From Geosiphon pyriformis uo1 (Eukaryota; Fungi; Glomeromycota): DNA of 64,000 nucleotides. Position numbers and translations under genes: made by a program. Location of the stretch: the NCBI GenBank assembly GCA_016748015.1, contig JAAOMT010000657.1, positions 248,001 through 312,000 on the forward strand, written 5' to 3'. The notes beneath the pieces were generated by a model, which was given only the letters and a program-made list of their open reading frames with translations, ran no database searches and was not told where the DNA came from. This document shows, piece after piece, positions 1-55,600 of the stretch; the first letter of the stretch is position 1; the number at the start of each line of letters is the position of its first letter.

Positions 1-453
1 ATAGCTCTTGATCATGGCTATTGATGAGATACTAACTTACCAAATTGCCTTGGCTTATTTTCATCATTATTTTCTTTATTTTATTTCTTTCTTTCTTTAA
101 TTCTGTTGTGCCTACTAATTGATTGAGGATTAAAAGCACTGAGTTATTGACGTCACAGATAGCCTGATAAAAGACCCAGAAATAAGAGTAGATTTATATA
201 TATTATTAGTTAGCTTACCAGAAGAGCACGACTGCCAGAATAAATCTGGCCACCAAGCTGAGAAAGAAATTGGAAAACAACTGACAACAAATAACGAATT
301 GCCACACTATCAGATCTCTGTCCATTATACAAAAGACTCTATCAAAACCTTCAGATACAACATTTACAGAATATCATTGATGGAAATAGCTTTTGAGCAC
401 CAAGTTACGAGTTTGTTATTTGACTTGAGACTCCAAATAATTCAACTGTAATA
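1..453 (+). repeat. 5' LTR of element A (3' part)
   Basis: Direct repeat of 9277-9728; ends ctgtaata (ancestral GTAACA) followed by the PBS. Confidence 0.96.
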
Positions 454-472
454 TTTGATGCTCCTTGTAAGG
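454..472 (+). promoter_or_regulatory. Primer-binding site; consensus over A/E/F/H is TTTGGTGCTCCTTGTGAGG (3' end like tRNA-Ile(UAU) or elongator tRNA-Met)
   Basis: Immediately 3' of LTR in A (454), E (40007), H (60301), F (57221, minus); complement CCUCAC-AAGGAGC-A-CCA fits T-stem, acceptor stem and CCA; tRNA identity is inference. Confidence 0.85.
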
Positions 473-515
473 TATAATCCTACAGAGAACCAGCACCAAC
501 AACACCAAACCAAAA

Positions 516-2640
516 GTGGTAGAATCAGAAATAATAGGGACAAATTATTTAAGATTTGCAAAATTTTTATTTCAACAGTACAGCCAGCAGCTAGGCCTAA
601 ACAACAATCATTACCCAGCAGAATCAGCTTTCAACTTCTATGTCAATGAAAGAATCACAGATTTCCTAGGAAGACCAGTTGACATTGAATCAGCAAGAAA
701 AAATTTTTATTCAGAACTAATCCAACATACCAACTTATCCAGAAATTACAGCTTTGCACCCATTATCAGAAAAATCAACCAAGAAATTGAAAGATATACA
801 CAAAAGACATTCCCTATTACTTACCAAAACAAAGGCAAAGGAAAACTACAGACACCAGCAATAACACCCAAAGAAATACAAATTCCTAACTGGAAAAAAC
901 AAAGAATCGAATTTCTGATATACTCATTATACCATCACACACCTGAAAGTACCATCAACATCACATTAGCAGATGCGTCTACCAGTACAAAGACGCCACT
1001 AGCAAGAATCACATTTCAGAGTAAACAAAAGAAAAACGAACTATTAGAAGCATACAGCAATTATTTTGAAGGATTTAAATCAAGATCACTAACACCATCA
1101 GGATTTCAATTACTGCCTCATCAGCCAGATTTTGGAACTGTTAGTCCTTGGGAAATTACTGAATCAGAAGAAAAAAAAGATGAGGATCAGAAATTTAATT
1201 ACCAAAACCCAATCCTAGAAGACCCGAACATTCAAACTCAGCAACATTTAAAAAATTCAGAAATTGAAACTCTGAATATTTGAACCCTGCCAAATCAAAG
1301 AAATTAAAACCCCGAGTTAATTCATCAGCAAAATCTATCTCCAGTTATTGTTATTAATCAACCACCAATTAAGCCGATCAGTAAGCCAATTCAACTATTT
1401 CAAGTACTACTCCAACAACTGTTACCTTTTCAACAACCACTTCAACAGCCACCACAACCACCCAACTTAGATCCAATGGCCTATGCACCAATCACAAAAC
1501 TTGACAACTTTACCGGCGAAGAGGATGATGCTCAAGTATAGCTGAATGATATAGAAAAAGCCATTGCAGCCAATGGATGGAATGATGCCCAGACAATGCA
1601 AGCCATTCTCTACTTTTTCAAGGATACTGCCAATTTATGGTACCAGAGCTTGATTAATAAACCACAAGATTTTGATGCATTCAAAGAGGAATTCCTAAGA
1701 TACTTCAGCAACAATAACAGCATCAATTGCCTAGTCAACATGTTCACCACCATGAAACAAAGAGAAACTAAAGCAGTCACTACTTACTTGGAATGCTTCC
1801 ATCAAAATCTGCGCCAAATTCAAGCAATTGATGCCAACTATTTCACAGCATTACAGATCCTTAACCAGTTTATCCATGGCCTGCGCAGCAGCATCCTGCA
1901 ACATGTATGTCTGTTGCATCCAGGTATACTTCAAGATGCAGTCACACATGCCAAAGATTTTGAATCTGCTGAGTCAGAGGCCAACCACGCCCAAGCCATT
2001 AATCTAGTAATGAACAGATCATCTGAATTGGATTCCAAATTGGAAAAGTTCAGTGAATCAATTAATAAGAGATTAGAAGGATACTTAGCTGACAATCATG
2101 CCATTTATCAGCCTCCACAATGATGCAATAATCATAGAAACTCTAATCGTGTCCAAAATCAACCACATCCATCTTCATCAACCAATCAACAGTGGCAACA
2201 GGAAATGCATATTTGCCACTATTGTGGTAAACAAGGACATATTCAAATCGATTGCTGTCAGCATTTAAATAACAAATGATCAAGAAATCAATATCAAAAC
2301 CCTGATCGTTGGTTCTCAACTCTGAATCATCAATCAAACTCAACACAATATCAAACTACTTACCTGCCAATGATGCAGCAATCAATTTATCAACCACCAG
2401 TATATTAAGCTCTAATTTATCAACCAATGGCCCCAATTTATCAGCCACAGCCACAGGTAATATATCAACTGCAGTCACCAACAATTTATCAACCCCAAAT
2501 GATTCAGACCCCACCACAAAACTTACCAGCCAGCGAAGTCCAAAAACCGAGAATTACACAGCAAAACTGAAGATTGTCGATAGTAGTTCATTAGCCAATT
2601 CCCTGTTCCTTCAGTCAAACAAGATCTTATCAATAAAATT
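516..2640 (+). pseudogene. gag: gag of element A: N-terminal extension (516-1475), capsid from ATG 1476, CCHC knuckle, IYQP-repeat tail
   Basis: MAYAPITKLDNFTGEEDDAQ...WYQSLINKPQDFDAFKEEFL capsid-like region; CHYCGKQGHIQIDC at 2214-2255; one frame continuing into PR. Confidence 0.9.
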
Positions 2641-2869
2641 TGGGTGCTGGGAATTCCCAAAACCTGAATTCCCAGGACTATTTAAGTCTCCTGGTTACTC
2701 CAGAAGATGCCTCACCCAGCAACCAAGAACCCACTCAAAACCACCAAACACGTACCAGCAATATTCTACCAACAATAGTCACCAACGACAAATTACTGAA
2801 CGCCATTTTTCCATTCAAACTCAAGGAACTATCAACCATGCCATTATTGAGTGGAGCTACACTGGAAGA

Positions 2870-3258
2870 AAAGCCAATTACCGCCATGTATACTGATGTA
2901 AAAATTGATGGCCATCTCATCAAACTAATTCTTGACAGTGGTTCAGCAGGCAGCATCATTACATGACAACTTATGGATCAATTAGGTGACTGAGTTGATT
3001 GAGCTGCTAGCACCAGAATCATCACAGCTGATGAAGTGACCAAGACTCCAATCGGCGAAATCAATGACTTATCAATTGAAATTAACGGCATCATAGTACC
3101 AATCAAAATACTCGTTATGGAAGCCACCCAATAGCAAGCTCTAGTAGGTAATGACTAGCTGTCTAAGACAAACACCACTTTGGATTAGAATACACAAGAG
3201 CTTCAACTCAGCCAGAATGGGCGACACATGCAAGTACCAGCAATATGTGGCCACTTCA
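2870..3258 (+). pseudogene. Retropepsin aspartic protease of A
   Basis: LILDSGSAGSII and ALVGND(W)L motifs. Confidence 0.92.
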
Positions 3259-3598
3259 AGACTACCAACACCACGGCATCATTAATCAACTTCGAGGAAG
3301 AAAAACCAAAACCTATCTGGGAAGCCTACCAAGTATTGTGGGCTGATGAAGAGCACAACGAGCTGCCACCAATACTCTCTTAGGATGACAACAGGAAAGG
3401 GAAGCAAACAAACGAACTTACCTGGGAAACCGACAATCTAACTTGAACCGACAACAAACAAGAAGAAGCTTTCAGTTGGGAATGGAACAAAAATAAGAGA
3501 AAAAAAAAAGAAAAAAAAAAGGAATGCCACCAACTGCTGTCATTTATAACTCCTACACCCACCACACTTCACAACAATCCAATTATTGACAGCCAAGG

Positions 3599-4230
3599 CT
3601 TGTATGTGTCAATTGCAGCAAGAAACTGTCATCAATGAGCACATGCTGTAGCGACGATGAGGAATACCACACTGCAACAAAGTTCTACTGTCATCCATGC
3701 TTACTTGAATGCTTTGGATGACCAAAGCAGCAAGGAAAATGGGATAACCAACTTTGTTTCGCTTGTGGGGAGACCCTGCTAGATAAAAGAATGTGAAATA
3801 ACATTCCAGGATGTAGAGGAATGTGCGATGCATTGTGTCAATACACAATTCTAATAAGTGACTGGGTAAAGAAAAGAACACCAATAGAAGCAGCCTGGAG
3901 AAGAGCCGTGCAGTGACTGGACAGTTGTCCACATGATGATGATAAAATTTGGAGAATGGCAATTAGCAAAATAGAAGGAGCAACACCCGAAGAGATCAGA
4001 GAAATCAAAAACAACTCATCAGAACCCATCAAGCTTGACTGGAATGCAAAGCCAGTCATAAATTTTCTGGAACCAAAAAAGTTCCATGAATACTACCAAA
4101 ACTTGGCACCCACTAGAGAAGAGCAAGAACAATAGCTAGCACAGTTGAATACAAGACTGTGTCGCCATTGTTTAATTCCCAGTAACTTTGAATATTGTGA
4201 CAATTGTAATCTTATTTACAATCCACCACC
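3599..4230 (+). pseudogene. Cys-rich multi-zinc-finger-like domain of unknown family inside pol (A)
   Basis: CVNC..YCHPC..CFAC..CDALC..helical..CRHC..CDNC; homologs in B, D, E, F, G, H. Confidence 0.75.
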
Positions 4231-4489
4231 ATGCATAATCTACACAATCCCCGAAGAGAAAGAACCAATCAGCAGCTGTGCATCAGAGTCGGAATCACCA
4301 CTCAATCCCAATTCAAACCCTGACAATAATGATGATAAGAATAACAGTTTCAGCTCTGTTCAAAATGGCAATGACAATGACAACAATATCAACTCAGATT
4401 CAAACTCCAACTCAAACTATGAACAATATATCATGCTTCCTGATCTCACCAAGGAACAAAAACTGAAATGGTTCAGCAATAATAATGAA

Positions 4490-4890
4490 GGTATTATGCC
4501 AGAATGTGCGCACAATACTGATGCAGAATTTGATCTGAGATATTCGGGAACAGAAGCCATCAAATTAGAACCACATACGTGCACCTGTATTAATTTGAAA
4601 ATAGCACTGGAAATTCCAGCAACAACAATGGTTCAATTAGCATCTAGGAGTAGTTTAGCAAAAAGAGGGATTAATATAAGAGGAGAAATAATTGACGCAG
4701 AATATGTAGGAAATATCATCACTATGCTACAAAATAACTCAAACAAGGCCTATATAATAGAGCCGAACGAAAAGATAGCACAGGCAATATTCTTATCTTT
4801 GGTTAAGATAGCTCAATTAGTACCAGTAGGAAACAGAGAAGAGTTAGAAATAACAGCAAGAGGGATACAGGGATTTGGGTCAATGGGTAG
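4490..4890 (+). pseudogene. dut: Trimeric dUTPase domain in pol of A
   Basis: All five motifs: DA(G)FDL, ASRSSLA, (G)IIDA(G)YVG, EKIAQ, RGIQGFGS(T)G. Confidence 0.93.
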
Positions 4891-5459
4891 AATAGATGTA
4901 TCAGTTAATATAGCAGAAGAAAAAATTGTTGGCCAAGAAAAAATTATCTCAACCGGTCAAGCTATTTCCATTCCACCATATAGCCAGTATATGCTAACAA
5001 TAGAAAGAAAGGAAAAAGAGCAAGAACAGATTTTTGAAGCTAAAGCAAGCCTTTGTAAATTAGGAGAAATAAGATTGATCAATCTCTACATACTAGCCAA
5101 AAGCTATAGCCACATAAAAATTCCCATCTACAACAACACTGGCAATGTCATCAACATACCAGAAGGAACCACCATCAGATATTTAACCACAGAAATAGAA
5201 GACCAACCATCAAACCCCATTCCAGACTTTTTACAACTTTGTGAATATATTGACATCACATCACAAACAATCTATAGACAAGACAAATGTTATTTACTCC
5301 AACCAAAACAATTGGAACAAATGAACATAGGAAACTTAGATCCACTTCAACATATACAGCTCAAGATGTTGCTCAACAATTTCAAGAACATTTTTGCCAG
5401 TGAAAACGAGTTTGACCAAACTGACATCATCCAGCATCAGATCAAGACTGGAGATGCAA

Positions 5460-6721
5460 TGCCAATCAAACAAAGAGCATACAGAGTGCCACCAGCCAGC
5501 CACGAGATCATTCGTTAAGAGATAAACCAAATGCTTAACAATGGGTTAATTCAACCATCAATGAGCCCATGGTCATTACCAGTAGTACTTGTTTGTAAAA
5601 AGAATGGAAAAATCCGATTTTGTGTGGACTACAGGAAACTCAACAGTGTAACTTGTAGAGACAGCTATCCAACTCCATGAATACAGGAATTATTTGATGC
5701 TTTCGGTGAAAACAAATGGTTCTCAACATTAGACTTAGACAGTGGTTATTGGCAAGTAGCCATGAATCCAGCTGACAAAAAGAAGACAGCATTCACCACT
5801 AGAAAAGGGAATTTTGAATTTGAAGTAATGCCATTTGGCTTAACCAATGCCCCAGCCACTTTCCAATGGCTAATGGAAATTGTTTATACTGGCTTATTGT
5901 GGAAATCAGTAGTTGTATACTTGGATGACACCAATGTATTCTCAAAAACATTTGATGATCACTTTCATCATCTTCAACAAGTGTTTGAAAGGTTAAGAAG
6001 AGCAAGACTAAAGTTAAATGCAACAAAGTGCTTCTTTGGCAAAACAGAACTAAAATTTTTGGGACACATAATCAGTAAAGACAGCATCAAAATGGATCCA
6101 GAGAAAATAGAGATAGTAAAAAACTTTCCAGTACCAACCAATGTAACTGAATTGAAATCATTCTTGGGATTCACAAGCTATTATCGATGCTTTATAAAGA
6201 ATTTTTTAAAGATAGCTCAACCGCTCAATAATTTGCAAACCAAGAATACCAAATATGAATGGACAGAAAGTCAACAAGAAGCTTTTGATATTCTGAAAAG
6301 AAAGCTTATTCAAGCTCCAGTACTGATCTACCCAGATTACAACAAACCATTTATCATTACTACTGATGTATCAGGCCAAGCATTGGGAGCAGTACTATCT
6401 CAAAAGAGACCAAATGGCAGAGTACATCCAGTAGCATATGCCAGCCAAGGTCTAACACCAGCCGAAAAGAACTATGGAACACCAGAACTAGAACATTTAG
6501 CAATTTATTGGGCAGTCATGAAGTGGAACAAATACTTGAGCCAAAAGTTTGATATATACACAGATTATAAAGAGTTAACATCACTTTAAAAGCAAGAATT
6601 TGATGACGGCCATCAATTCAGATGGAAAATGGCACTATTACGATATACTTATGCTATACACTATAAGAAAGGAAAAGACAACAGAAATGCTGATGATTTG
6701 TCGTAAATAAGACAAATTTAA
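5460..6721 (+). pseudogene. Reverse transcriptase + RNase H of A
   Basis: FCVDYRKLN, MPFGLTNAPATF, YLDD, TDVSGQALGAVLSQ, ELEHLA, YTD. Confidence 0.97.
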
Positions 6722-6781
6722 GAACATTTCAACCCAAAAATATAACAAAACCAGAACAATACCAACAAAAAATAACAAAAG

Positions 6782-8164
6782 ATGAACATACAAAAATATC
6801 AACAACTCTAACATTATATAAACACTCAACAGTTCAAAGAGAATTTATTTCAAATGGAACGAAAGAGGATCAAACAACAATCAAAATATTTTATCACTTA
6901 CCAAAATATACTTTATCAGAAAAATAGGAGGGATCTAGATCAGCCAACCAGAGTAATTACAGAGCCAGAGAAAGAGACAATATTATTCAACATGCACTCA
7001 AATCCAACAGCCAGACACTTTCACAAAGAAGCAACCATGAAAAGAACCAGAAAAAGATACTATTGGTCATCAATGTATCCAGACATTATCCAATATGTTC
7101 AAAATTGTAATGCTTGTCAGCGAAGAGGAGGAACAAGACCCAGTGAACCATTAAGACCAATCAAAGTGAGACAACCATTTGACCGGATTGGAATTGATTT
7201 AGTTGGACCATTAACAATCACCAGCAGAGGAAACAGATATATAGTAGTAGTCATGGACTATCTCACTAAATGGCCAGAGGCGAAAGCAATTCAAAGAGTG
7301 AATGCAAAATTTGTTGCCAAATTTGTTCATCAAGATTTAATTTGTCAACACAGATGTCCAAAAGAATTATTATCAGACCAAGGAACTCATTTTGTGAACA
7401 GAACATTAACAGAATTGAGCCAAAGATTCGGAATTAAGAGACTATTATCATCACCATACCATCCACAAACCAACAGATTAGTCAAAAAATTCAACAGAAC
7501 ATTGTGTAAAGCAATTGCCAAACTCAGCCAAAAAAACCAGGACAAATGAGATTTGTTCATACCATTAGTATTATTTGCTTATTAGACAATGAAGCAAGAT
7601 ACTACACAAGCAACACCATTTGAATTAGTATATGGTAGAACAGCAACATTACCAGTAGAGAGAGAAATTAGTACATATCAAGCTGAACCAATAACAGAAG
7701 AGAATTTTCAAGAAACATTGCTGAGAAGAACATATGAATTAATAGAAACATTAGAAAACAAACGAAAAAGAGCAGCTGATAATATTCAAAAGTTACAAAA
7801 AAAACAGAAAGAAAGACACAATAGTCAACTACTAGACAAACCAGTTGAATTCAAGATTAGAGACAAAGTACTTTTATATTGTACTAAAGCAGAAAAACAA
7901 TGGAGTGGAAAATTTGACCCCAAATGGGATGGACCATTTCACATAGAAGAAATTCTAGGAAATGGAGCTTACAAATTAAGACTGGATAACAAAATTTTAA
8001 CCAAAGCAGCACATAAAGATTGACTGAAATCATACCACAACATTACACTATCATCTATCAGTAATATTCCACAATTAGAAGTACAGAGAATACTAGTCCA
8101 ACCAGATGAAATTCCACGAAATCTGGAACCAATAATTATTATCGACAACAACATGTTAAATTGA
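6782..8164 (+). pseudogene. Integrase of A (HHCC, DDE, GPF/Y; no chromodomain), starting at its own ATG
   Basis: HSNPTARH..CNAC, GIDLVGP, SDQG, FNRTL, KWDGPFHI. Confidence 0.95.
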
Positions 8165-8217
8165 TTCAGCAAAAGAATATATAAAAACATGGTAAATGCG
8201 ACAAAAAATATCAGAAA

Positions 8218-8847
8218 ATAGAAATTACAGACAACATTCACTCACTAGCACAACAACTTTTTCAATTGATTCAACACCAGGAAATAAAAATTACAATCAA
8301 TCAACAAACCATTTGATATCAAAATCCTAGAAAGACATTGCAACCCAGAACACAAAAGAAAACTGAAAATATGGTGGACAAAATCATTGCGAAAGTAAAA
8401 TTAACAATAAGAGAGTTGACAAAAGAGACACTATATTAAGAGTTGACTAAAGAAACTTGAAATTAGTGGATACAACAATTTTCAAGAAACTATTGTTATT
8501 TTTATTTGGGACAACATATAAATATCCAGAATCTATTTACGGATAAAACAAAGCAATTATTCGACAAAAGAATATTACAACAATTAGAACATTTTGTGGG
8601 AAAGAACAACTTATCCACACAGGCCTGAACCATATACTGAATATATACAGCATTTCAGGATAGACCAGAAATATTACTCAACAAAGCAATAGATATGGTT
8701 ACCAGTAATCAATTGGAAAAGATCACCAATGCTCAATTTGAAAAATTACAGACCCAAATAACACAAGTAATTCTCAAAAACAAAATCCAGGAAATACTTC
8801 AAGAGGGGGAATTAAATGAGTTGGATTTCAACAGAGCTCAATATTAA
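8218..8847 (+). pseudogene. ORF3 of element A, ~209 aa, unknown function
   Basis: Codon-level conservation with E 52955-53586; protein similarity to B 15298-16032; ends DFNRAQY*. Confidence 0.8.
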
Positions 8848-8860
8848 AAGGAGGGAATAA
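8846..8860 (+). promoter_or_regulatory. Polypurine tract of A
   Basis: aaaaggagggaataa directly before the LTR start TGTTAC. Confidence 0.9.
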
Positions 8861-9728
8861 TGTTACTCATAGAAATATAGGAAATATATTAGCATAATTA
8901 GTAGCCAATCAGAAGTAGGCATAGTAAATGTGGAATTTCAGGATTCCTCTCAGGAATTGCAGGATTTCAGGAATTTTAGAATTCCCCAATGAGGAATTGC
9001 AGGATTCCAGAATTCCAGGATTCCTCTTAAAGAAATTGCAGAATTCCAGGAATTCCAGGATTCCTGTCATGAAGAATTAAGGAATTAAAGAATCTCAATT
9101 ATGTATATATAGCAGCAGGATTAGAAGCTGAAAAGAGGGACCTCTCAGTTTAGATTTAATCTAAGCAATCTTTCAATTCCCAATTATCAAATAAATAATT
9201 ATTTTATATCTCAATCCACTCTCCACTATTAACACTTCATGTTGATAGTAATTGATACTTAACCACACTGAAACAATAGCTCTTGATCATGACTATTGAT
9301 GAGATACTAACTTACCAAATTGCCTTGGCTTATTTTCATCATTATTTTCTTTATTTTATTTATTTATTTCTTTAATTCTGTTGTGCCTACTAATTGATTG
9401 AGAATTAAAAGCACTGAGTTATTGACATCACGGATAGCCTGGTAAAAGACCCAAAAATAAGGGTAGATTTATATATATTATCAGTTAGCTTACCAGAAAG
9501 GCATGACTGCCAGAATAAATCTGGCCACCAAGCTGAGAAAAAAATTGGAAAACAACTGACAACAAATGATGAATTGCTGCACTATCGGATCTCTGTTCAT
9601 TATACAAAAGACTTCATCAAAACCTTCAGATACAACATTTGCAGAATATCATCGATGGAAATAGCTTTTGAGCACCAAATTACAGGTTTGTTATTTGACT
9701 TGAGACTCCAAATAATTCAACTGTAACA
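8861..9728 (+). repeat. 3' LTR of A (868 bp, TGTTAC...GTAACA)
   Basis: Terminal inverted repeats; TATA-like tatatata ~9105; AATAAA ~9190. Confidence 0.96.
8931..9096 (+). repeat. U3 array of ~9-bp GGAATTCCA/GGATTCCA units
   Basis: Visible tandem degenerate palindromes; also in E, F, G, H LTRs. Confidence 0.85.
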
Positions 9729-16046: not shown

Positions 16047-16928
16047 TATTACTTGAGTAGAAAAACCAAAAAGCTATAGAAAAACGTGACAAAAAAATGT
16101 GACAAGAAAAACGTGATACAACTCAAGGTAACACAGAACAAATATGAACAATAGCTAGCAATAATAAGCAATAGCTAACAATAGTAAAGCAATTGAAAGC
16201 AATTCTGTAAAACCAAAAGAATGTATTAAAGCAAGTAGTTGTAGAAGTTGAAAAAACAGACAGTTAGTCAAGTAATTAATTTTACTTTGTATTATACTTA
16301 TTATACATCCATAGTCTGAAATACAATAATTATCAAAAACAAAATCCAATTTACCAATTTATGTTCTCCAATTTTATGGATTTTAATTGAAATTAAAATC
16401 AGTATTTCCTATTTTTGTTCTGGGACAGATGTCATTAGCATAAATGCCTTGAACTCTTAATGATTTGGACTAATCACTCTTGATCACAGCAATTAACAAG
16501 AACTAATTTTTTTTTTTCTCTCTTTATTTTCTTTTCTTTTTTCTTTTGTTTGGAGTGGCAACATAGAAAAATCAACTGTCTTAGAATAGATTTTGTGATA
16601 GCCTGGTAAAAGAAGGAAGCTCTCCCTAAGTTTTGGATATTAACATTATCTTAATAGCTTATCAGAAAGATGAAAAAACAACACTGGATCCTAATGACTG
16701 TGCTTGTTAGCATGAAAAAGAAAGCTCACATTTATGGAAAACATTGCAATTGATGAAAGACAAACTCTGTGCCTTATAACCAAAGAACTCAACAGGTAAA
16801 TTTACATCCAAAAATAGATCTTCAGAAACTGATAACACTGACACTGCGGAAAGAGCAACCAACCTTAAAAAATCAAAAAATAGAGCACCAAAAGTTACCA
16901 CCATACCCTACTCAGTTTACTTATAACA
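16047..16928 (+). repeat. 3' LTR of B (~882 bp)
   Basis: Starts tattac after the PPT, ends ttataaca; host C1 sequence resumes. Confidence 0.85.
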
Positions 16929-19900
16929 CTGTATAATAAAAAGAAGCTAAAACACAAATAAGTAACTTGCTAAATACTCTACTTGAATAAATTTGACTAA
17001 GACATATAATATTGCAAAAAAGCAAATTATTAAAACACAAATACTTTTTTTAGACTTATTATCAAATAATAGTAGAATCTTTTTAAACCAAAACAACCTA
17101 ATTATTAGTAATTTTACTTTAATTAAACACAATAATAAACTTGAACAACTATTCTGCCTTAATAAAAATTTTGGATAAAAAACAATATTCATTAAACTAC
17201 ACTTAACAACAAAGAAAATATTTGCACAAACAATCAAATTTTTATTTAATTTATCAAAATTAACTATACAAAAGAAACAGAAAAAATCTTAACTGCTATT
17301 AAAAAATCATTAGATTTAAAAAAAGAAATTGTAATTTACAATATATACACTAATTTATTAGTTAAATACTTTGGAAAAACAAAAACAATTTAAAAAATCT
17401 TAGTTTGTTATTATTGGTCTACTTTGGAAAAAAATATTGTTGAGTATATAAAAATCTGTAATATCTGTTTAAAAAAAAAAATTCAACTGCAAAAAAAATA
17501 TATATCTAACAGAATTGATATAAATATTATAAAATTCTTAAAAATAACTTTTGATAACTACAAATATATTATTACAGCTACTAATTATTTTATAATAGAA
17601 ACAAAAGTTATCTTAAACTAAACAACAGTCTTTATTGCTAATTTTATTTATAAAGATATTATTTATCATTATAACTGTTTTAAAAAACTTTTGTTTGATA
17701 GAAAAAAAGCTTTTCTTAGTATACTGATTAAAAAACTTTGTAAAAAGATAAAAATATGTCATAAACTCTTTTTTTTATTACTCTTAAACAAATGTTTTAA
17801 TAAAATGTTTTAATAAAATCTTATGTAAAACTTTAGCCAAAGCCAGTAAAGAAACAAATCTATAAGACAAAGTATTGTTTTCAGCTTTATTTGTTTATAA
17901 AACTGTAAATTATAACATAACAAATTATAAATTCTTTTATCTGTTCTATAAACAAATAGCAATTTTATCAATAAAAATTAATATTAAGACAATATATTTT
18001 AAAAAAATCATAATAAAATATTATAAGAATATTTTACAAAAAAAGCTTAATACAATTCTTGACTTTTTAATAAAAACATAAATAATTGTTTTTGAAAAAA
18101 TAAAACAGTTTTAAAAAAAGCTTAAAAAAAAATTTATAAAACACTTTTCTTAAGTATTAATAACTTAAAAATTTAAGAATATCTTACTAAAAAGACATAA
18201 CTGTTAAAATAAACTGGCTATCATACTAAAAAAAAATTCCCAGAAGAAACCATTAATTAAATCTCTGTTTATTATACAAAAAACTCAACCAAAATCTTTA
18301 AACTCCAAAATCTTCAGAAATTACCAATATTTCCAGCTATTGAGCACCAAGTTATGAGTTTGTTATTTGTTTTAACATTCTAAATAATTACTTGTAACAC
18401 TGGTAATAGTTTTTTTTGGATTAATAACAGTATAAGTTTTATTGTTATTAGTTATAGTGGTTTGTTTTTTAATAGTTAGAATAACATTTGAATAATTTTT
18501 GGTCTAATATTTATAAAAAATATAGAAAGTATTTTAAATGTTTTAATTTAAAAAATAATTATTTATGTTAATTAAAAATACTTTTGTTTTGAAAATAGTG
18601 TATTTATTTATAACTAATTTTTGTTGATTATTTAGATTAGTATTACCACAACAAGTAACTAATTAAGTTATTTATAATATTTTTTAAGTTTTGTACTATG
18701 AACAGAGCAATTATTAAAAATTGTTTAATATTAATCTTATAGAATATAAAAATTATTATTCAGAAATTTGTTTACTAAAAAGAGTTATTTCTACCAACTA
18801 AAAAATTTATTTTTATAGACATTGTCTTTATTTAAATAATATTTTAAAACTACTTTTGTTTCCAGGTTTTTTACCAGACTATTCTTGATGTTAAATATTC
18901 AGCACTTAATACTTTTAATCAATTAGTAAACAACAAAGAAACAAAATAAAAAAATAATAAAAAATAATAAAAAATTAGTATTTTATCAATAACTATAATC
19001 AAGAACTATTGTTCTAATGTAATTAAGAATTGAATTCTAACAACATGGAGTGTTGATAATGTAGAATAAATTAATATTTCTTTAATTAAATAATAATAAC
19101 ATGAATTTAATGATAATAGATAATTTTATTAATATGGAAATAATTTCATTTTAATTTATAAAAAACTATTTTTTAAAAAAAGAGATATTGTTGTTCTAAA
19201 CTCTATTGAATTCTTTTAGAATTACTTTTTCTGTTTTTAATATTCTTGCTATATATACATAATTTATATTATACAAAATTCCTTGAAATCTTTTAATTTT
19301 TATGAGTAATACCAGAAAAGAAAAAATTGATAATAAAATAGATAAATATCTGCTTAAAAACATAACAACAGTAATACTTCTATTCTCTATTATAATTTAA
19401 AAAACAATTCAAAAAATTCTGCTTATAAACAAAAACTTGTTATATAAAAAACAATTAAAGCTCTATGGTTATTTTGGTAAAATCATAGAAAATATAAAGC
19501 TTATAAAAAAACAACTTCAAAAATACAAGTAAAAATTTTGGACATTATATGATTAAATATTTCAAAAGTTTTGATCATTGCTAAAAAAGCCAAAACTTTT
19601 ATACAAAAATTTGGTTTCTTAGATACAAAACTTATTTTATTTTAAATATTATATATTTTATTTACAAAAAATTTTATATTATGGTTAAAACTTATAGTTT
19701 TTATTAGTTATTATATGTATTAGCCAATAATGTCATATAATTAGCCATTCTATTTTTAGATAGTAATTATTAATAATTTAACTGTTAATTTGGTTATTAA
19801 TTATTTTCAATAATTATATAAGTAATAAGTCTTTTAGCTATGAAAAAACATAATCATAATTAAAAAAAAAAATAATAATTATTATTATCTCAATTTTTTT

Positions 19901-33212: not shown

Positions 33213-33857
33213 TGTTACGGATTGGAGTAACAAGCTAACAGATACCAAGAGAGAACAGGATTGTAGGGTGATGGAATTAATCAAAGAGGATTCAACTTCA
33301 AGGAGCGAATTGAATGAGTATGGATTCAATGTGCGAGATCAGTCTCATAAAATATCTCAGTCGCTATTCTTTTCAAAGGATAATTGGGGAATCTGAAGGT
33401 AGAGAGATTAGTCCATACTGTCAACAAATGATAACACACTGGTATAATTCTATGCCTCATGTCGGTGCTCTTAGAATTTGATATCAGATATCAAATGTAC
33501 TCTTCAGTCACGTTTTATTCAATAATCTTCAAATGCTACAATTATATGAGTCAGGAAAAGGGTAGGTAAATGCCAACAAGTAATTTTTTATCCCAAGATG
33601 TTTGGATACTTGAAGGTAAGGAAAAGGGAATAAGTGATAGGAGAAGAATTGAGATGATAGTTGTTATTTTATTTATTCTTGATTAATTGCTACATATTTT
33701 TCTGCAGTTAAGAGACTCATCACTTATATAGCTATTAAAAGTGGTTAGGTTATTGATCAGGTCAATGATCACTATCTAAAAATAGAGTGGTTAATTATGT
33801 GACATCAGTAGTTAATACATGTGATAATTAATAAAACTATGGTTTTTAACTGTAATA
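33213..33857 (-). repeat. 3' LTR of C3 (~645 bp), least mutated C-family LTR
   Basis: tgttacgg...ctgtaata; homologous to 19677-20325 and 21723-22335. Confidence 0.88.
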
Positions 33858-37077: not shown

Positions 37078-40000
37078 TATTATAAGTAATTATTTAAGAT
37101 GTTGAAACAAATAACAAATCTGTAACTTGGTGTTTAATAGCTGTTAATGTTGGTAATTTCTAAAGATTTTAAAGTTTAAAGATTTTAGTTGAGTCTTTTG
37201 TATAATAAACAGAGATTTAATTGATGGTTTTATTCTGTGAATTTTTTTTTTAGCATAATGGCCAGTTTATTCTAACATTTATGTTCTTTTGGTAAACTAT
37301 TTTTAAATTTCTACTCTTGTTCTCAAGTTTTTTACCAAACTATTTTTAATATTAATTATTTAATACTTAATTTCTTAATCAATTAATAAACAATAAAGAA
37401 AACAAAATAAAAGAAAATAAAAAGAAAATAAGAAAAGAAATAAAAATTAATATTTTATTAATAGCTGTGATTAAGAGTTATTGGTTCAATATTGCTAAGT
37501 ATTAGATTTTATTAATATAGAGTATTAATAGTATAGAATAGATTAATATTTCTTTAATCAAATAATAATAACATAGATTTGAGTAATAATAAATGTTTTA
37601 TTAATATAAGTATAATTTCACTTTAAGTTATAGAAAAATATTTTTTAAAAAGAGAGATATTATTGTTTTGAACTAAATTGTCTGTTTTTTTTGTTTTTAA
37701 TATTTTTATTATATATATATAATTTAAAATTTTTTGAAATTTTGAAATTTTTTTAAAAAAAATTCTGGAATTCTGGAATCTTGGAATTCTTTTTTTTTTA
37801 CTACATCTATTTCTGATTGGCTATTTTATCTACTTATTATAATTTCTAATTTCTATAAATAATATTATTTTTTTCTTTTAATATTGAGCTCTGTCAAGAT
37901 TTTTTAAATTTCTTAACTTTTTGGAAAGATCTGAAAGCACAATATATTGTTTAAAGTTTTTATCAAAGTTTGAATTATTGTTATTGTTATTGCCATTGTG
38001 AATAGAATTGGAATCATTGTTGTCATTATTATTGAAGTCTAAATTGGAATTAAATTTCAATTCTAATTTTAAAGTACAACTGTTAATTGGTTTTTTTTCT
38101 TCAAAAATTGAATAAATTATGCATAGTGGTAAATTGTAAATAAAATTACAATTGTCACAATATTTGAAATTACTAAAAATTAAGCAATGTTTACAAAGTC
38201 TAGTGTTTAACTATTCTAAATACTGCTTTTGTTTTTCTCTAGTGAATGCTAAATTTTGGTAATGTTTGTGTAATTATTTTAGATTGCTTAAAATAATAAC
38301 AAAAATGTTTGGATTTAGAATAAGAATAGTGTTAATGAGTTTTAATAAGTTGTTTTTGATTGTAAGTATTTTACTAAATAAAGCATCTTTGACTTTGGCA
38401 CTTGTTATTTGCCAGATTTTGTTTTTATTGTGTGAATAACCATCTAAATACAAGAGTATTCAGTTCTATGCAATATTGAAAAACATTTTTCAGCTTATTC
38501 AATTGCTTATAAAAATTATGTATTAACATAATATATTATATAATCTTTTTCAATTAAGAATGTTATTCTATATTTCTTTGTTAAGTAATGTTTCTCTATA
38601 AGCAAAACATGGTTTGTTATTTTACTTTTCCTGTTTTTTGGATAACCAAAACATTTTCTATGGCATGTTTTGTAGTAGTAGCAAGTACATATTTTATAGT
38701 TTTTTGTTAATAAGATATAAGCTCCTATAGAGAAAAGTTTTTTTTTATAATTGATACATTTAAAAAGAATATAAGGTGGTTTTTTTCTTGGTTTCACTAA
38801 GTATGGAACATACCAACTATTATTTGTTTCTTCTGTAAAAGTGGTAGTTTAAAATTTATCCTCTTTTTTTTCTTTTTTCTTGTTATCTCAAAATAAAATT
38901 GGTGATAGCTTATTATAATTGTTATTAGTTTATGAAACTTAATAGACTTTTCAGATAAGTTTGTTTATTTTTTTTTCAAATTCTATTAGTGGTTGTAATT
39001 AGATTGTTTTAAAATAATTATAAGTAGCTAGTATTATTCATAGAATATAAAAATTATATATTAATACATAAAATTAGCCAATTAGAAAAAAACATAGTAA
39101 AAGTAGAATTCCAGAATTCCTTTTGAAAGAATTATAGGATTCCAAAATTAGAAGATTCTTATGTAAAGAATTCCAGGATTCCAGAATTTTAAAATTCTTC
39201 TTAAGAAATTACAAGATTATAAGAATTCCAGAATTTCTGGCTAGAAAATTGAAGAATTAAAAGAATCTCATACAATAAAATTTATGTATATATAGCAGTA
39301 GTATTAGAAGCAAAAAAAACAGAATTCAGAGTTTAGAACTTCTAATTTCAATTTTATACTCATCCTTTTATATGATAGTATTCTATAAATTGAAATAAAA
39401 ACATCAAATATCAATAAAATACTTATTACTATTACAATCTATTATTTCACTATTAATCAACTTATGTTAATAATTGCTAATACTTAACTATACTAGACCA
39501 ATAGCTCTTAATTACAGTTATTAATGAAATACTAACTCTTTCTTGCCTTGGCTTATTTTCTTTATTTTATTTATTTATTTTATTTTTTTGTTGTTTGTTG
39601 TTTACTAATTGATTTGAAAAATTAAGCACTGATTAATTAATGTTAAGAATAGTCTAATAAAAAACCCCAAAAGAAGGATATAAAGTTTAAAAAATTTACA
39701 GATAAGCTTACTAGAAGAACACAACTGCCAAATTAAACCAGTTACTATACTAAAAACAGAAATTAGATGAAATTGTGATTCTGAAAGGCTATTATACAAC
39801 ACTTGAATTTTTGTTTATTATATAAAGAACTTATACCAAAATCTTCAAATCACACCAAAATTTTTAGATCATATCAAAACTTTCAGATCACACCAAAACC
39901 TTCAGATTACACCAAAACCTTCAGATATTACCAATTATATTAGCTATTGAGCACCAAGTTATAGGTTTATTATTGGTATCAATACTCTAAATAATTATTT

Positions 40001-40555
40001 ATAACATTTGGTGCTTCTTGTGAGGTATAATCTTACAGAGAACCAGTACCAATAACAATTACTCAAAAGTGGCAGAATTAGAAATAAGAGGAACAAATCA
40101 TTTAGGATTTGCCAAATTCTTATTTCAACACTACTGTAAACATCTGGAATTAACCAACAACCAATTATTAATGGAATTTGCTTTTAACTTTTATGTTAAC
40201 AAAAGAATTAAATATTTTTTAGGAGAACCAGTAAATACAAAATCAGCAAAAAAAAATTTCTACAGCAAATTAATTCAATATACTAGCTTATTATTAGACC
40301 ACAACTTTGCACTGATCATTACTAAAATCGACAGAGAAATTAAAAATCACACCCAACAAATATTTTCTATTATTTATGCAAAAAAAAGCAAAGAAAAACT
40401 ACAAATACTAGCAGAAACTCCAAAGCAAATACAATTATCTATTTGAAAAAAACAAAGAGTCAATTTACTAGCTAATTCATAATATCATCACACTCTTAGA
40501 AGTATTATCAATATAACATTAACAGGCACATTCACAGCAAATACAATAATACTAT

Positions 40556-43500: not shown

Positions 43501-45941
43501 CAGTGGCCAGGGATTCTACAGTAATGGTAATTCTGAGGCTGGTTATTAGAAAGTGGTGCAAAGTTATTTTGATTTCATTTTTGGGGTGGTTGATATCTTT
43601 AGAATTGCTGTTGTTGTTGGTTGGTGAAATAGTTTTCAACCTTCTTTGTGAGTTGGTCAATTTTTTCCTCAGCTGTTGAGCTGGTTTCTCCAATTGCCAA
43701 ATTCACAAGTTTTGTGCAATTGGCATCTTCCATGGCCATTTTGTATTTTTTTGCATGTTGTATGGCAGAGTTTAAATCTTTTGGGGCATGTGAGCAAACC
43801 TTTTTAATCAGTTTATCCTTTAGACCAGCAATAAATTGATCTAAGATTTAAGCATTTGAGTAATAATCATTGGTTTCAAGTTGATGAATTCTTCTGAGAA
43901 GTTTGTTAAACTTTCTAAAATAAGTCATAACAGATTTAGAAAATTTTTGTTTGATATTGCGAAACTGATTTTGAAGAGTGATGGAGGTATTATTGTAAGT
44001 GAACTGTTCAAGGAAGGCTGTTTTGAAAGCATTCCAATCATTGAATGGAGTGGCCAAGTTTTCAAACCATTCTTCTGCTGTTCCTTTGAGAAAATAGGAA
44101 ATAGTTCTTAACATTCTGACAGCATTCCAACCATTTGCATCTCCTACTTTAGTGACTTGATCAAGCCATTCTTGAGGACTGGTTTCAATGTCCTCTCCTG
44201 AAAAGTCAGGGATTTTTGCAATATAAGTGGAGGCCATTTCTTCTTTGTTTTCCGAGTCTTCTGTTTCTTGTTCTGATTCAGTCTTTTCACTTTGATTTTC
44301 TGCTAAGTAGTTAATAAGGTTTGTGCTGGTTAATATTGGTTCCTGTTGTTGAATAGGGCTTTTGGGTGACTGAAAATCATCTATTTTTAAAAACCAAATA
44401 AGTGATAAGCTTGGTGTTTGTGGTTAAGCAAGTGAAGCTGGAAATGGTGTGATTGAGAGTGGTAATTTAAAGCTGGTTCTTGGTTCTGGAGTTTGTAAAT
44501 GTTTGGCAGTGGTTTTAGGTGTATTGGAAGTAGTTCTGAGTTTTTGTTTCCTTTTTCCTTTTTATTCTTCTGTTTCTGATTCAAAACTAAGAGAAAATTT
44601 CTGTTCTACTGGGTAATTCTCTTCACAATACTAAATGATATTGAAGTTGAGTTCTTGGAAATATGTTTCAAGTGTTTGACTGTTAAAATCCTGAGTGTTT
44701 AGATGAGAGTGATGTACTAAGTTTTCATATAAGTTGTGTCTAACTTCTGAAATATTGTAGTCTCTAAGAAGATAATTGTTGATGCGATTTTCAATGTACT
44801 AGTAAAGTGTTTTCTTGAATGTTTCAATTTCGTCTGGGATGTCAAATCTCTGCTTGCAGTGGGTGTAGATTGACTGATAATACTCTAGAGTTTTTGAATC
44901 TGTTTGAGTCGTCACTTTTGAAGTTGTTGTTACTGTGTTATTTCCGTGGAAGAGCACCAAATATTACTGGAGGTTTTTGGTCTCTTTTCCTAAATGTTGT
45001 TAATGCCTGTTTGCTGTGAATTCATGTTTTCTGGATGTGGTTGAATCTCCAGTAACTGAATTTATTTTCAAATTATCTCCTATAATTTGAACTGCTGGGC
45101 TTATAAGTAGAATGGCCAATTCTGTGCCAGTTACTTGTGTAGTTACATTGTAGTAAATGTCAACTCTTTTTCAGGAATTGCTCATCTGGAAGCTCACTAA
45201 AAATGTGTAGTTACTTTGCTGTGAAAGTCAACTCTTCTACAGGAATTTTGTCTGTAGGTTACCCTAATGATTATGATAAGAAAATAAAAGAAAAATAAAA
45301 GAAATGTAAAAAAAAATTGAATTCTGTCAAGGAAATTGTTTTTGATCCAGGCCTGGAATCACTAACAGTTTATTGAAATTGGTAGCTAATCAATTTCAAA
45401 ACGTTAGTTGGGTTTTGATAATTTTCCAAGTGCAATAATTTAAAAAATTTGGCTTTTCGAATTATTTGATGTTTATTTTGTTTTTGTATGTAAAGGATGA
45501 TTCTAATTGTTAAATCTGAAGTAAGATACATTTTCTTAAAAAGGGAAGCTCTTCTTTTATACAACTTGTCGTAACACTATTCTATGAACTTGAACTTTGC
45601 TCTTTTCTACAATTTTGCTGAACTAAAGATATATTTCAGCAAACTACAAGTTATTTCTGCAAACTATTAGATATTTTGGTGAATTATCAATTATTTCGGC
45701 AAATTTCTACAAATTTCAGTGAACTTTTGAATGTTATATATTTCGGGGTATTGCATGATTGATCATCACAATTAGGTTACATTTGTGTTATGTATAAATT
45801 GGGTTATTAATTAAATGATAATTTCGGATATTTTGCTAATATAATAAGTAATAATTTGAAATGATAATATATGCTAATTAATAATAGGAATTATAAAGAT
45901 AATTTTATGCTAGATAATATCTCTAATTTTGTCTGATAACA
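40556..45941 (-). mobile_element. Element D: divergent family, internally deleted (gag, PR, ZnF, ORF3 C-half); LTRs 40556-41534 and 44962-45941; TSD CTAT
   Basis: ~980-bp LTR pair; PBS tttggtgctcttccacgg; PPT gaggaggagg; LILDSGS; MASTYIAKIPDFSGED capsid. Confidence 0.95.
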
Positions 45942-52600: not shown

Positions 52601-55600
52601 AATACTCTTGTATTGTACCAAAACAGAAAAACAATAGAATAGAAAATTTGATCTCAAATAAGATGGATCATTCCACATTGAAGAAATTTTAGGAAATAAA
52701 GCTTATAAACTAAAATAGAACAATAAAATCTTAGCTAAAGCAGCACATAAAAATTAATTGAAATCATATCATAATATAGTATTATTATCTACCAGTTATA
52801 TTCTACAACTGAGAACACAACAAATATTAGTCCAACCAGATAAGATTCTACAAAATCTAGAACCAATTATAATCATCAATACAAACATGTTAAATTGATC
52901 AACCAAAATAATATATAAAAACATAGTATACATAACAAAAGCAACAAATAAAAAATAAAAATTACTAATAACATTTATTCATTTACACAATTACTATTCT
53001 AACTGATTTAACAACAAAACATAGAAATTACAATTAATCAACAAACCATTCAGTACAAAGATACTAAAAAAAAAACCTAATACAAGATGCACAGAAAACC
53101 GAAAAACACCATAGACAAGATAATAGCAAAAGTAAAATTGTCAATAAAAATACCAGAAACAGCTATATTCTACTAAAAACTGACAAAAAAAACTTGGAAT
53201 TGGTGAATACAACAATTTTCAAGAAACTTTTGTTATTATTACTTGAAACAAAATCTGAATATTCAAAACTTATATACTGACAAAACAAAATAATTATTTA
53301 ATACAATAATATTATAACAACTTGAACAATTTGTGAAAAAGAATATCTGTTTATATAGACATAAATCATATATCAGCTACATGCAGAATTTCAAGATTGA
53401 CCAGCAATACTATTTAATTCAGTAATAAATACAATTACTGTTAACAAATTGGGTAAAATTACCAATGCTTAATTTGAAAAATTACAGATTAAAATAACCC
53501 AAGTAATTTTCAAAAAAAAAGTTTAAAAGTTAATTAAAAATGGAAAGTTAGAAGACATAGAAAATTTCAACAGAGCTCAATATTAAAAAGAGAGAATAAT
53601 GTTACTTATAGAATATAGAAATTATATATTAATACATAAATTAGCCAATCAAAAGAAGATATAGTAAAAGTGGAATTCCAGGATTTTTCTTAAAAGAATT
53701 ACAGGATTCCAAAATTACAGGATTCTCATGTAAGAAATTGCAGGATTCCAAAATTCCAGAATTCTTCTTAAAAAATTAAAAGATTACAAAAATTCCAGAA
53801 TTTCTGGCTAAAGAATTGAGAAATTAAAGAAATTTTGTACAATAAAATTTATGTATATATAATAGTAGCATTAAAAACAGAAAAGACAGAATTCAGAGTT
53901 TAAAATCTCTAATTCCAATTCTATACTTATTTCTTTATATAATAGTATTCTATAAATTAAAGTGAAAACATTAAATATCAATAAAATACTTATTATTATT
54001 ACAATCTATTATTTTACTATTAATCAACTTATGTTGATAATTGCTAATACTTAACTATACTGGACCAATAACTTTTAATTATAGCTATTAATAAGATATT
54101 AATTCTTTTTTGTCTTGGCTTATTTTCTTTATTTTATTTATTTCTTTGTTGTTTGTTGTTTACTAATTAATTTAAAGAATTAAGTACTAATTAATTGATG
54201 TCAAAAATAGTCTAATAAAAGACCCCAAAAGAAGAATATAGAGTTTAAAGAATTTACAAATAAGCTTACCAGAAGAGCATAACTGTTAGACTAAACTAGC
54301 CACCATACTAAAAACAAAAATTAGATGGAATTGCAATTTTAGAAAACTACTACACAACATTTGAATCTCTATCTATTATATAAAAGACTTACATTAAAAT
54401 CTTTAAATTACACCAAAATCTTCAGATTACACTAAAATCTTCAAATATCACCAACCATATCAGCTATTAAGCACCAAGTTATGAGTTTGTTATTAGTATT
54501 AATATCTTAAATAATCACCAGTAACATTGATATTCAAGTATGCCAACTATTTTAATTGAGCTGTAGCTCTTGAATATTTCAGTTAAGTACAGTATTGGTT
54601 TTGAACAACCAATTATTACTAATAAAAGCTTAATATTGTGTGGCTTTTATAATAAGAACTTTGATAGATGTGATGATACTATTGACTTTAAAAGAAAAGT
54701 TGTTAATTTTACCAATAGAAATTTTGGTTGTTTTATTGACTGTAATAATCCTAGTATTGGCAGCACAATCAACTTGGTAATTTAATTAATCTATAAGTTA
54801 TTAGATAATAATACTGTCTGCTAACTCACTATTAAAGATTAATTTGATAAATTGTCTATTAACTTTAATATTAGTATATATAATGGTAATTAGTTTGATA
54901 TTAAAAGTGGTTTTATTAAATAACAGAGTTTCTGATTGGTTTTTTAACTTAAATAGAAAGATAATAACTAGTAATTTATTTTCTGTAATGGTTGCTAATA
55001 AGATGTTATTGGTGGGATGTTGTTAGTAAGTAATATTAAGTTGGTTTTTAGTAATTTAAGTATTGTGATTTTTGGAGTTATCAATAAACTTAAATAGTTC
55101 TGAAAATTCAGATTTTGAGTGTACTTACTTTCTGAATTTTTTAGACATAATTTTAATGGCTGGTTTAATGAACTGAAAATCAATTAATGCATAATCATTG
55201 CCAATTTTCAACTTTGTTAAATGTAAGTGATTTTTGGATTTTGGATTTTGGTTAATGTTAGCACAGTATTTTAGAATGGTACTTGAATTTATTAGAATTA
55301 ATAGATTACTTGTGGTTATAGTTAATAAATTACAAATATTGAAGCTTAATACATTAGAGGTATATAAATAAGTTGTTGCATTATTGATTGATATGAGATT
55401 TAATATTAATATTGTTTCTAATTCTGAATATAATTCAGAATTTGAAACCTGTGATCAAAACTTTTATATTGGTTTTCTGATTGTAAATTATTAGACTTGA
55501 AGCAGTAGTCTGTTTTTAGATAGTCTTGTTTATTATAGTAGTAACAATTACATGTTTTTTGTTATCATGATTAATTTAATAATAATAATAATAATAATAC

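What the first reader, a model, noticed from the sequence alone, without database searches (positions are those of the whole stretch)
395..463. U5 'anti-PBS' hairpin: an LTR sequence mimicking the tRNA 3' end pairs over the LTR end and PBS
Seen: GAGCACCAA-GTTACG (395-409) is complementary to (C)GTAACA-TTTGGTGCTC (LTR end + PBS), with an inner stem ttatttg/caaataa. It recurs in E (39949), H (60244), F, G and the solo LTR. The otherwise unrelated B LTR has gagcaccaaaagttac (16883-16898), a 15/16 match to the A-type end + PBS complement. D has a version fitted to its own PBS (aagag-accaaa vs tttggtgctctt). Known: Tf1-type elements self-prime through RNA complementary to the PBS, and retroviral U5 stems regulate initiation. 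Inference: a PBS-masking switch (timing of tRNA loading, shielding from tRNA fragments) or an alternative self-primer.
Basis: partly seen in the sequence, partly recalled or inferred. Interest (0 to 1): 0.75.

Follow-up and report, generated by a model that had tools for sequence, protein, structure and literature searches.

The report
Hairpin covering a retrotransposon's primer site
In a family of decayed jumping genes of the fungus Geosiphon, the end of the terminal repeat carries a short inverted copy of the site where DNA copying starts, which is predicted to fold over half of that site and likely controls when the tRNA primer can load, much like structures already known in retroviruses.

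Summary
The inverted repeat is real. It lies in dUTPase-bearing Ty3/gypsy retrotransposons of Geosiphon pyriformis. The motif sits 58-59 nt before the LTR end in nine A-type LTRs, 46 nt in family B and 27 nt in family D, and folds over PBS bases 1-8 in four of five LTR-PBS junctions. In B, whose PBS is outside the window, genome contigs gave the predicted PBS core and a perfect 16-nt inverted copy in 47% of depth. The PBS itself is an ordinary tRNA site: LTR end, two-base spacer, then 17 nt matching an elongator tRNA-Met 3' end, nine bases beyond the hairpin. The predicted transcription start lies about 525 nt upstream and no chromodomain was found, so Tf1-type self-priming is unlikely. Covariation within family A is not above shuffles; the host tRNA and real start site were not testable. 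Best reading: a tRNA-primed element with a U5-PBS stem that gates primer loading, a variant of known retroviral/Tf1 U5 stems. The scan earlier noted self-priming hairpins in diatom copia elements, not this tRNA-primed form. Interest 0.38.

The parts
395..409 (+). U5 motif: inverted copy of PBS bases 1-8 plus one spacer base (395-403) and of the LTR end (404-409); reads like the tRNA-Met 3' end followed by the first minus-strand DNA bases, two bases short
   Evidence: no change at 10% or more listed for 387-409 in 2589 contigs of run X1
395..463 (+). Predicted 69-nt irregular hairpin: motif/PBS helix, LTR-end helix, inner stem, 11-nt loop
   Evidence: -18.6 kcal/mol, z -2.2 as RNA; z -3.3 as DNA; kept in a 653-nt context
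415..441 (+). Inner stem (415-422 with 434-441) and loop
   Evidence: 68 of its 72 cells are standard pairs or better in nine copies by the per-pair table: only pair 32-46 breaks, in 2 copies
447..455 (+). 5' LTR end (447-453, C>T at 452) and two-base TT spacer (454-455)
   Evidence: mirrored by AA before the 3' LTR at 8859-8860
456..472 (+). 17-nt PBS complementary to an elongator tRNA-Met 3' end; two G>A changes in this copy
   Evidence: 15/17 to tRNA in L138; all 9 mismatches in four copies are G>A or C>T
324..333 (+). Conserved TTATA box about 70 nt before the motif (also in B and D, 110-120 nt before theirs); role unknown, the only candidate for a second promoter
1..453 (+). 3' part of element A's 5' LTR (U5)
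   Evidence: 425 of 453 identical to the 3' LTR, 26 of 28 differences transitions
471..7549 (+). Broken gag-pol of element A: Gag N-terminal frame, capsid, dUTPase, RT-RNase H, integrase
   Evidence: Pfam; ORFs; 100% match to a Geosiphon pyriformis record
8846..8860 (+). Polypurine tract and spacer before the 3' LTR
8861..9728 (+). 3' LTR of A (868 nt): TATA 9104, initiator-like 9145, AATAAA 9190, motif copy 9670
16883..16898 (+). Family B motif, 46 nt before the end (16928) of B's 3' LTR; 15/16 inverted copy of the majority junction, 16/16 in part of the family
18342..18399 (+). A-type LTR end with motif, no PBS
33462..33472 (-). Similar motif in the distant family C LTR, about 260 nt before its end; C's PBS is not in the window, so a lead only
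   Evidence: 0 of 300 shuffles against D's junction, 4 of 300 against E's; alignment
37078..37135 (-). Solo A-type LTR end with decayed motif
39949..40025 (+). Element E 5' LTR end: best-preserved hairpin and PBS (16/17)
   Evidence: -21.6 kcal/mol, z -3.75, 0 of 200 shuffles
44944..44988 (-). Family D junction: motif 44976-44988, LTR end 44962, different PBS tail; 11 pairs with one bulged PBS base, two more pairs than A into D's own PBS
   Evidence: no tRNA found for D's PBS
54469..54526 (+). Element E 3' LTR end with motif
57203..57279 (-). Element G 5' LTR end, hairpin and PBS (14/17)
57995..58052 (-). LTR F end with motif, no PBS
60243..60319 (+). Element H 5' LTR end and PBS (14/17); hairpin not the preferred fold in this decayed copy

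Best explanation
The end of U5 in these Geosiphon Ty3/gypsy elements carries an inverted copy of the LTR end and of the first eight PBS bases, which is predicted to fold the genomic RNA into a stem that likely gates loading of an elongator tRNA-Met primer. Shown: the inverted repeat, its recurrence in three families, the canonical LTR-end/TT/TGG layout and the 17-nt fit to a tRNA-Met 3' end found in other organisms. Predicted: the stem closes PBS bases 1-8, the very bases where the tRNA's CCA end must pair, and costs 9-12 kcal/mol to open, while the full tRNA duplex is worth up to 33. Inferred: tRNA, helped by the Gag chaperone inside the particle, lands on PBS bases 9-17 and displaces the mimic; priming is thereby delayed until packaging, and the remaining upper stems stand just ahead of RT as a U5-IR-like initiation structure. 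Inferred origin: an inverted duplication of the primer/minus-strand junction in the common ancestor of families A, B and D.
For: PBS bases 1-8 pair with U5 at probability 0.88-1.0 in A, E, G, D (except one mutated or bulged base each in A and D) and still at about 0.7-1.0 in 650-800-nt contexts of A, E, D. 90.5% of cells paired against 35-47% for slid structures. Out-of-sample test on B: loose ends behind the LTR end (10 contigs, agreement 0.54) have GGTGCT exactly where the motif predicts it; 16 contigs (47% of depth) make the inverted copy perfect; depth peaks on the motif (about 3180 against 660 upstream). Loop length differs (59, 46, 27 nt to the LTR end) while the pairing stays. tRNA fit: 29 of 30 viral loci and 67 of 77 metagenome loci found with the PBS complement are called tRNA-Met(CAT), 5 of 77 tRNA-Ile(TAT); L138 matches exactly. 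Energies: opening 12.3, tRNA duplex -32.6, tRNA opening 11.6 for E, net about -9 kcal/mol (my sum).
Against: No covariation in family A beyond shuffles (score reached by 434 of 500; only four rows cover the PBS pairs). H does not form the stem in context (probability under 0.1) and A, D, H are not individually significant in the duplex test. PBS bases 9-17 are mostly free in local folds and in A's long context but paired at 0.8-1.0 in the long contexts of E and H, so the landing site is not robustly open. The motif window ranks only 74 of 854 in conservation among seven LTRs: other U5 boxes are as conserved. The tRNA patterns were built from the PBS, so the match is partly by construction, and the host's own tRNA was not seen. 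Families A, B, D share ancestry, so recurrence is not independent. All copies here are dead and decayed; no RNA data.
Confidence: 0.6

Rival explanations
1. Tf1-type self-priming, alone or as a backup: transcription starts at the motif, it pairs with the PBS and RNase H cuts it free as primer.
For: Geometry like Tf1/Tj1: LTR sequence complementary to the bases just after the LTR (PMC7175516, PMC4600332 passages). B's motif gives 10-11 pairs against an A-type junction, the length used to predict self-primers in PMC6317226. A conserved TTATA box lies 70-120 nt upstream of the motif, and A3 and E3 have further TATA-like matches in U5.
Against: The PBS starts with TGG after a two-base spacer and keeps nine more tRNA-complementary bases that a self-primer would not maintain. 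TATA plus AATAAA (5 of 6 LTRs; with an initiator-like match in 3) lie 260-570 nt upstream of the motif. In A the motif gives 9 Watson-Crick pairs plus one G-U, short of 11. No chromodomain in 12 stop-free stretches behind the integrases of A and B.
Confidence: 0.08
2. The hairpin acts on DNA: in minus-strand strong-stop DNA the copied motif folds back on the tRNA end, and in plus-strand strong-stop DNA it captures the newly copied PBS, helping primer release or timing the strand transfers.
For: Both DNA strands fold as well above shuffles as the RNA (z -3.3 to -3.8 for A and E); B's motif equals the primer end plus first DNA bases exactly in part of the family.
Against: DNA stems are weak (-10 to -11 kcal/mol); the same sequence necessarily folds in both chemistries, so this is no separate support; a closed plus-strand PBS would hinder the second transfer.
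Confidence: 0.12
3. The stem mainly serves RNA fate (translation, splicing or packaging), not priming: the Gag frame has no AUG near its start, and the hairpin overlies a possible 60-nt intron that would remove the PBS in frame.
For: No in-frame AUG in the 270-codon Gag frame; 80 of 97 matched homologues have Val and 12 Met at one conserved place. Some annotated gene models join the motif frame to Gag, and the join is in frame in 4 of 4 junctions.
Against: The gene models are predictions on decayed repeats and use several different joins; the upstream open frame is kept only in A's two LTRs; the acceptor would be GAG or AAG; D has no such arrangement; frame agreement has a one-in-three prior.
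Confidence: 0.1
4. Neutral relic: an old inverted duplication carried along by descent with no function.
For: No covariation; related families; other U5 boxes equally conserved.
Against: The motif survives while spacing and neighbouring sequence change; contigs of diverged B relatives begin to align at the motif (10 loose ends before 16876-16877); D's version gains two pairs to its own PBS.
Confidence: 0.1

Closest known systems
Retroviral U5-IR / U5-PBS stems (avian sarcoma-leukosis virus, HIV-1 PBS segment)
   Same: U5 sequence base-paired next to or over the PBS in a tRNA-primed genome; base-pairing that masks a priming element regulates initiation (PAS masking, PMC1865047 passages; stem loops pairing LTR with LTR-adjacent sequence called of interest in PMC3601003). 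ASLV details are recalled; the U5-PBS and U5-IR papers were seen as titles only.
   Different: Here the pairing strand is a literal 9-16-nt copy of the primer end and first cDNA bases and covers 8 of 17 PBS bases (3 of 18 in the HIV-2 model, PMC3185550); the host is a fungus and the element a retrotransposon; no extra tRNA-U5 pairing was found.
Tf1/Tf2/Tj1 and the Tf1/sushi self-priming chromoviruses
   Same: An LTR sequence complementary to the bases right after the 5' LTR, enclosing an inner stem.
   Different: In Tf1 the complementary 11 bases are the first bases of the RNA and no tRNA is used (PMC7175516). Here the PBS is a full tRNA site, the motif lies at the far end of a predicted 500-nt U5, and no chromodomain was found.
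dUTPase-bearing fungal Ty3/gypsy elements (Postia PosPlaTy3-5, Tuber Tmt1, Phanerochaete elements)
   Same: dUTPase between protease and RT, as described for PosPlaTy3-5 (PMC2864245 passages; here).
   Different: Clade (Ylt1-like or other) was not determined; nearest non-Geosiphon RT representatives are unnamed, about 50-55% identical.

Membership tests
Ty3/gypsy LTR retrotransposon | gag, then RT-RNase H, then integrase, between LTRs with PBS and PPT | tested here: met
tRNA-primed LTR element | PBS begins TGG 0-5 nt after the 5' LTR | tested here: met
   two-base spacer then TGG in E, G, D; one G>A change in A and H
tRNA-primed LTR element | At least 12 nt complementary to a tRNA 3' end | tested here: met
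   17 nt to tRNA-Met in L138 once G>A/C>T decay is allowed; 14-16 of 17 per copy; not found for D
tRNA-primed LTR element | The matching tRNA is encoded by the host | not tested
   no genome held, no tRNA in the window; both read-laying runs went to the LTR ends
Tf1/sushi self-priming group | PBS not complementary to a tRNA | tested here: not met
Tf1/sushi self-priming group | LTR segment of 10-11 nt complementary to the bases after the LTR | tested here: inconclusive
   A-type 9 plus one G-U (10 in the 9670 copy); B 10-11 against an A-type junction; D 11 with a bulge
Tf1/sushi self-priming group | That segment is the 5' end of the transcript | not testable with these tools
   no RNA run listed; promoter motifs point about 525 nt upstream
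Tf1/sushi self-priming group | Chromodomain behind the integrase | tested here: not met
   no chromodomain hit at E 0.1 in 12 stop-free stretches of A and B; copies are broken, so a lost domain is not excluded
Tf1/sushi self-priming group | RNase H cleavage releases the primer | not testable with these tools
   needs biochemistry
Retroviral-type U5-PBS regulatory stem | Stem joining U5 to the LTR end and PBS, conserved among relatives | tested here: met
   as prediction:
Retroviral-type U5-PBS regulatory stem | Compensatory base changes | tested here: not met
   3 pairs changed on both sides, reached by 351 of 500 shuffles; low power
Retroviral-type U5-PBS regulatory stem | Effect on initiation of reverse transcription | not testable with these tools
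   needs an assay

The most novel reading that the evidence does not exclude
This lineage is a living intermediate between tRNA priming and Tf1-type self-priming: it keeps a full tRNA-Met site and also a built-in copy of the primer end, with a conserved TTATA box upstream that could start a second transcript at the copy, so the element could prime either way, and a single shift of start site explains how self-priming arises.
Probability: 0.1. Interest if true: 0.75.

Novelty: new variant of a known kind. Interest (0 to 1): 0.38.

Why it matters
It gives a clear, multi-family example of a tRNA-primed fungal retrotransposon whose U5 mimics its own primer, extending retrovirus-style control of primer loading to a Glomeromycota gypsy lineage. 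It also warns that LTR-to-PBS complementarity alone does not show self-priming. If a second start at the mimic exists, it would offer a testable route from tRNA priming to self-priming. Without RNA or functional data, and in dead copies, it remains a structural prediction of modest reach.

Tried and rejected
No whole genome held; no RNA holder listed; runs X2 and X3 gave 1 and 0 contigs. No relative of the RT in viral contigs. The 16-nt junction pattern gave 42 viral loci, none looking like an LTR junction in the 70 nt read upstream; 2 of 42 had the 7-mer within 400 nt; treated as chance. D's PBS pattern: 1 viral locus, no tRNA. The 30 viral tRNA hits are phage-type genes, useful only for geometry and isotype; priming by a symbiont or phage tRNA was not pursued. 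Extra pairing between U5 and the rest of the tRNA: 97, 46, 163 and 8 of 200 shuffles as good in four copies, using a non-host tRNA; rejected as unsupported. Protein-coding constraint on the motif: the open U5 frame exists in 2 of 10 LTRs only. No Rfam match in 1-700 at E 1. Clade placement failed: 9 of 10 RT representatives looked up had no informative name. Depth dips at 444-461 are confounded by this copy's own mutations and were not used. Position 469 (A here, G in three other window copies) was not listed as variable; unexplained, possibly contig clipping. Literature: nine full-text searches listed no paper on this structure in Geosiphon or on a primer mimic in a tRNA-primed retrotransposon; only listings and selected passages were read, subscription papers are not held, two key Tf1 papers were not held, and no supplements were opened, so absence from print is not established.

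Full report
Setting. The window is 28% G+C with CpG at 0.32 of expectation and is a nest of decayed Ty3/gypsy elements. Element A has capsid, dUTPase, RT-RNase H and integrase frames. All 120 listed homologues of its dUTPase frame (of 566 found) and all 120 listed for its Gag N-terminal frame (of 166) are Geosiphon pyriformis records, one of them 100% identical, so the host is this Glomeromycota fungus, for which an LTR expansion is reported (PMC11952901, passages). A's 3' LTR is 8861-9728, behind a polypurine tract and AA; its 5' LTR ends at 453. The two LTRs are 425 of 453 identical and 26 of 28 differences are transitions.

The observation. The motif is at 395-409 and the inner stem at 415-422/434-441. 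Nine A-type LTR ends carry it 58-59 nt before the LTR end.

Folding. In 95-nt junction pieces PBS bases 1-8 pair with U5 at probability 0.88-1.0 in A, E, G and D (bar one mutated base in A and one bulged base in D) and at 0.4 or less in H; z-scores are -2.8, -3.3, -1.3, -0.9 and -0.9. The tool's own folds agree: A -18.6 kcal/mol (5 of 200 shuffles), E -21.6 (0 of 200), D -11.4 (10 of 200); the 3' LTR copies without PBS are weaker (A -14.1; B -1.0). In contexts of 650-800 nt the helix stays in A, D (0.94-1.0) and E (about 0.7) and is lost in H; G was not run. A duplex test of U5 against the first 12 bases after the LTR was reached by 3 (E), 13 (G), 78 (A), 96 (D) and 336 (H) of 1000 shuffles. 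On the nine-copy alignment 90.5% of 189 cells pair, against 35-47% for slid structures, but covariation is no higher than shuffles (434 of 500), with only four rows covering the PBS. The motif window ranks 74 of 854 in conservation among seven LTRs: conserved, not uniquely so.

A test outside the sample. B's PBS is not in the window. Laying X1 on B's LTR end (38 contigs) gave a loose-end consensus behind position 16928 (10 contigs, agreement 0.54, a mix of 5' junctions and flanks) with GGTGCT at bases 4-9, where the motif predicts it; an A>T change at 16893 in 16 contigs (47% of depth) makes the motif a perfect 16-nt inverted copy of the majority junction; and depth rises about fivefold on the motif, with ten contigs starting to align just before it. 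Depth stays nearly level to 16905, so these are not reversed junctions. D's motif lies 27 nt from the LTR end and pairs two bases further into D's own PBS, with one bulge: one fitted change, weak as covariation. The distant family C (RT 36%) has a similar 11-mer 260 nt from its LTR end (0 of 300 shuffles against D's junction), but its PBS is unknown.

What the PBS is. The layout is LTR end, TT, then TGG, mirrored by AA before the 3' LTR, the usual sign of tRNA priming with two bases trimmed by integrase (established knowledge). A pattern made of the PBS complement behind a generic T-loop found 30 viral loci, 29 called tRNA-Met(CAT), one cut off. A looser eukaryote-type pattern found 77 metagenome loci: 67 Met(CAT), 5 Ile(TAT), 2 intron-bearing genes given other names, 3 uncalled; one, L138, has the exact end, 70 differ by one base and 6 by two. 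Against L138 the four A-type PBS copies match 15, 16, 14 and 14 of 17, and all nine mismatches are G>A or C>T. The match is partly built into the patterns; what is not built in is that the hits are tRNA genes, nearly all of one elongator isotype. The organisms are unnamed and the host tRNA was not seen. D's PBS has tRNA-like geometry by eye but found no tRNA.

Where transcription starts. By motif only: A has TATA at LTR position 244, an initiator-like site at 285 and AATAAA at 330, with the motif at 810; D has 381, 423, 465 and about 955; E is similar; H and C have TATA and AATAAA; B has neither match. [quoted passage not shown] A TTATA box conserved in A, B and D 70-120 nt before the motif, and further TATA-like matches in U5, leave a second start possible. 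No chromodomain was found behind the integrases.

Mechanism. Opening the PBS costs 9-12 kcal/mol; the tRNA duplex is worth -32.6 in E and opening the tRNA 11.6, so the tRNA wins by about 9 kcal/mol, less in decayed copies (unmodified-RNA model, non-host tRNA). The stem covers the bases that take the CCA end and leaves bases 9-17 as a possible landing site, open in local folds and in A's long context but paired in the long contexts of E and H. I infer a gate: priming waits for chaperone-assisted strand displacement in the particle, and the upper stems remain as an initiation structure. Shielding from tRNA fragments is not excluded, but their seed would pair with the unmasked half, and an 18-nt fragment could invade like the primer (inference; PMC7472051, passages, notes that mismatches outside the seed also relieve repression). 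Rivals are a role in strong-stop DNA (both strands fold), a role in Gag expression or splicing, backup self-priming, and a neutral relic.

Comparison and verdict. It works like retroviral U5-PBS/U5-IR stems (PMC1865047, PMC3185550, PMC11181671, PMC3601003, passages) and looks like the Tf1 self-priming fold (PMC4600332, PMC6317226, passages) without meeting its defining features. Lin and Levin 1998 was seen as a title only. Nine searches found no description of this case, within the limits given under Tried and rejected. Four earlier scan notes on diatom copia self-priming are a contrast, unchecked here. Verdict: real, a new variant of a known kind, interest 0.38.

Noticed in passing
window 471-1283 and 516-518: The Gag frame opens right after a stop inside the PBS and has no AUG in 270 codons; an in-frame GTG in an AAAAGTG context (also present in D) may be a non-AUG start. 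80 of 97 matched homologues have Val and 12 Met there.
   Followed up: partly
window 146-451 and 9421-9726: About 100 codons of open frame in U5 of both A LTRs, ending at the TAA of the LTR end; not kept in eight other LTRs.
   Followed up: partly
window 411-471: A possible 60-nt intron over the hairpin and PBS that would join the motif frame to Gag in frame; used by some annotated gene models.
   Followed up: partly
window 7-130, 16475-16560, 45300-45350 minus: U5 boxes shared by families A, B and D: a TGATCA box, a long T-rich tract and further short boxes; in A also TACTAA(C/T) branch-point-like motifs.
   Followed up: no
window 8185-8844 and 15517-16029: Remnants of an extra reading frame between integrase and 3' LTR in A and B, similar to each other by eye, with no convincing Pfam match.
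   Followed up: partly
window 33213-33232 minus: Family C's LTR ends in a compact 6-bp inverted repeat with an 8-nt loop, a U5-IR-like hairpin; its U5 also holds a PBS-like sense 8-mer near 33300.
   Followed up: no
window 40557-45941 minus: Element D, with 94% identical LTRs and gag but no RT hit, is inserted in E's gag with a CTATT target duplication.
   Followed up: partly
window 31440-32732 minus and 23787-24251 minus: Host genes among the repeats: a homeodomain protein and a weak Rrp44 S1-domain match.
   Followed up: no
L043-L072: A family of phage-type tRNA(CAT) genes, often in arrays with Ile(TAT), Leu and Arg(TCT), ends in the same 14 bases as the PBS complement; taken as coincidence.
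   Followed up: no
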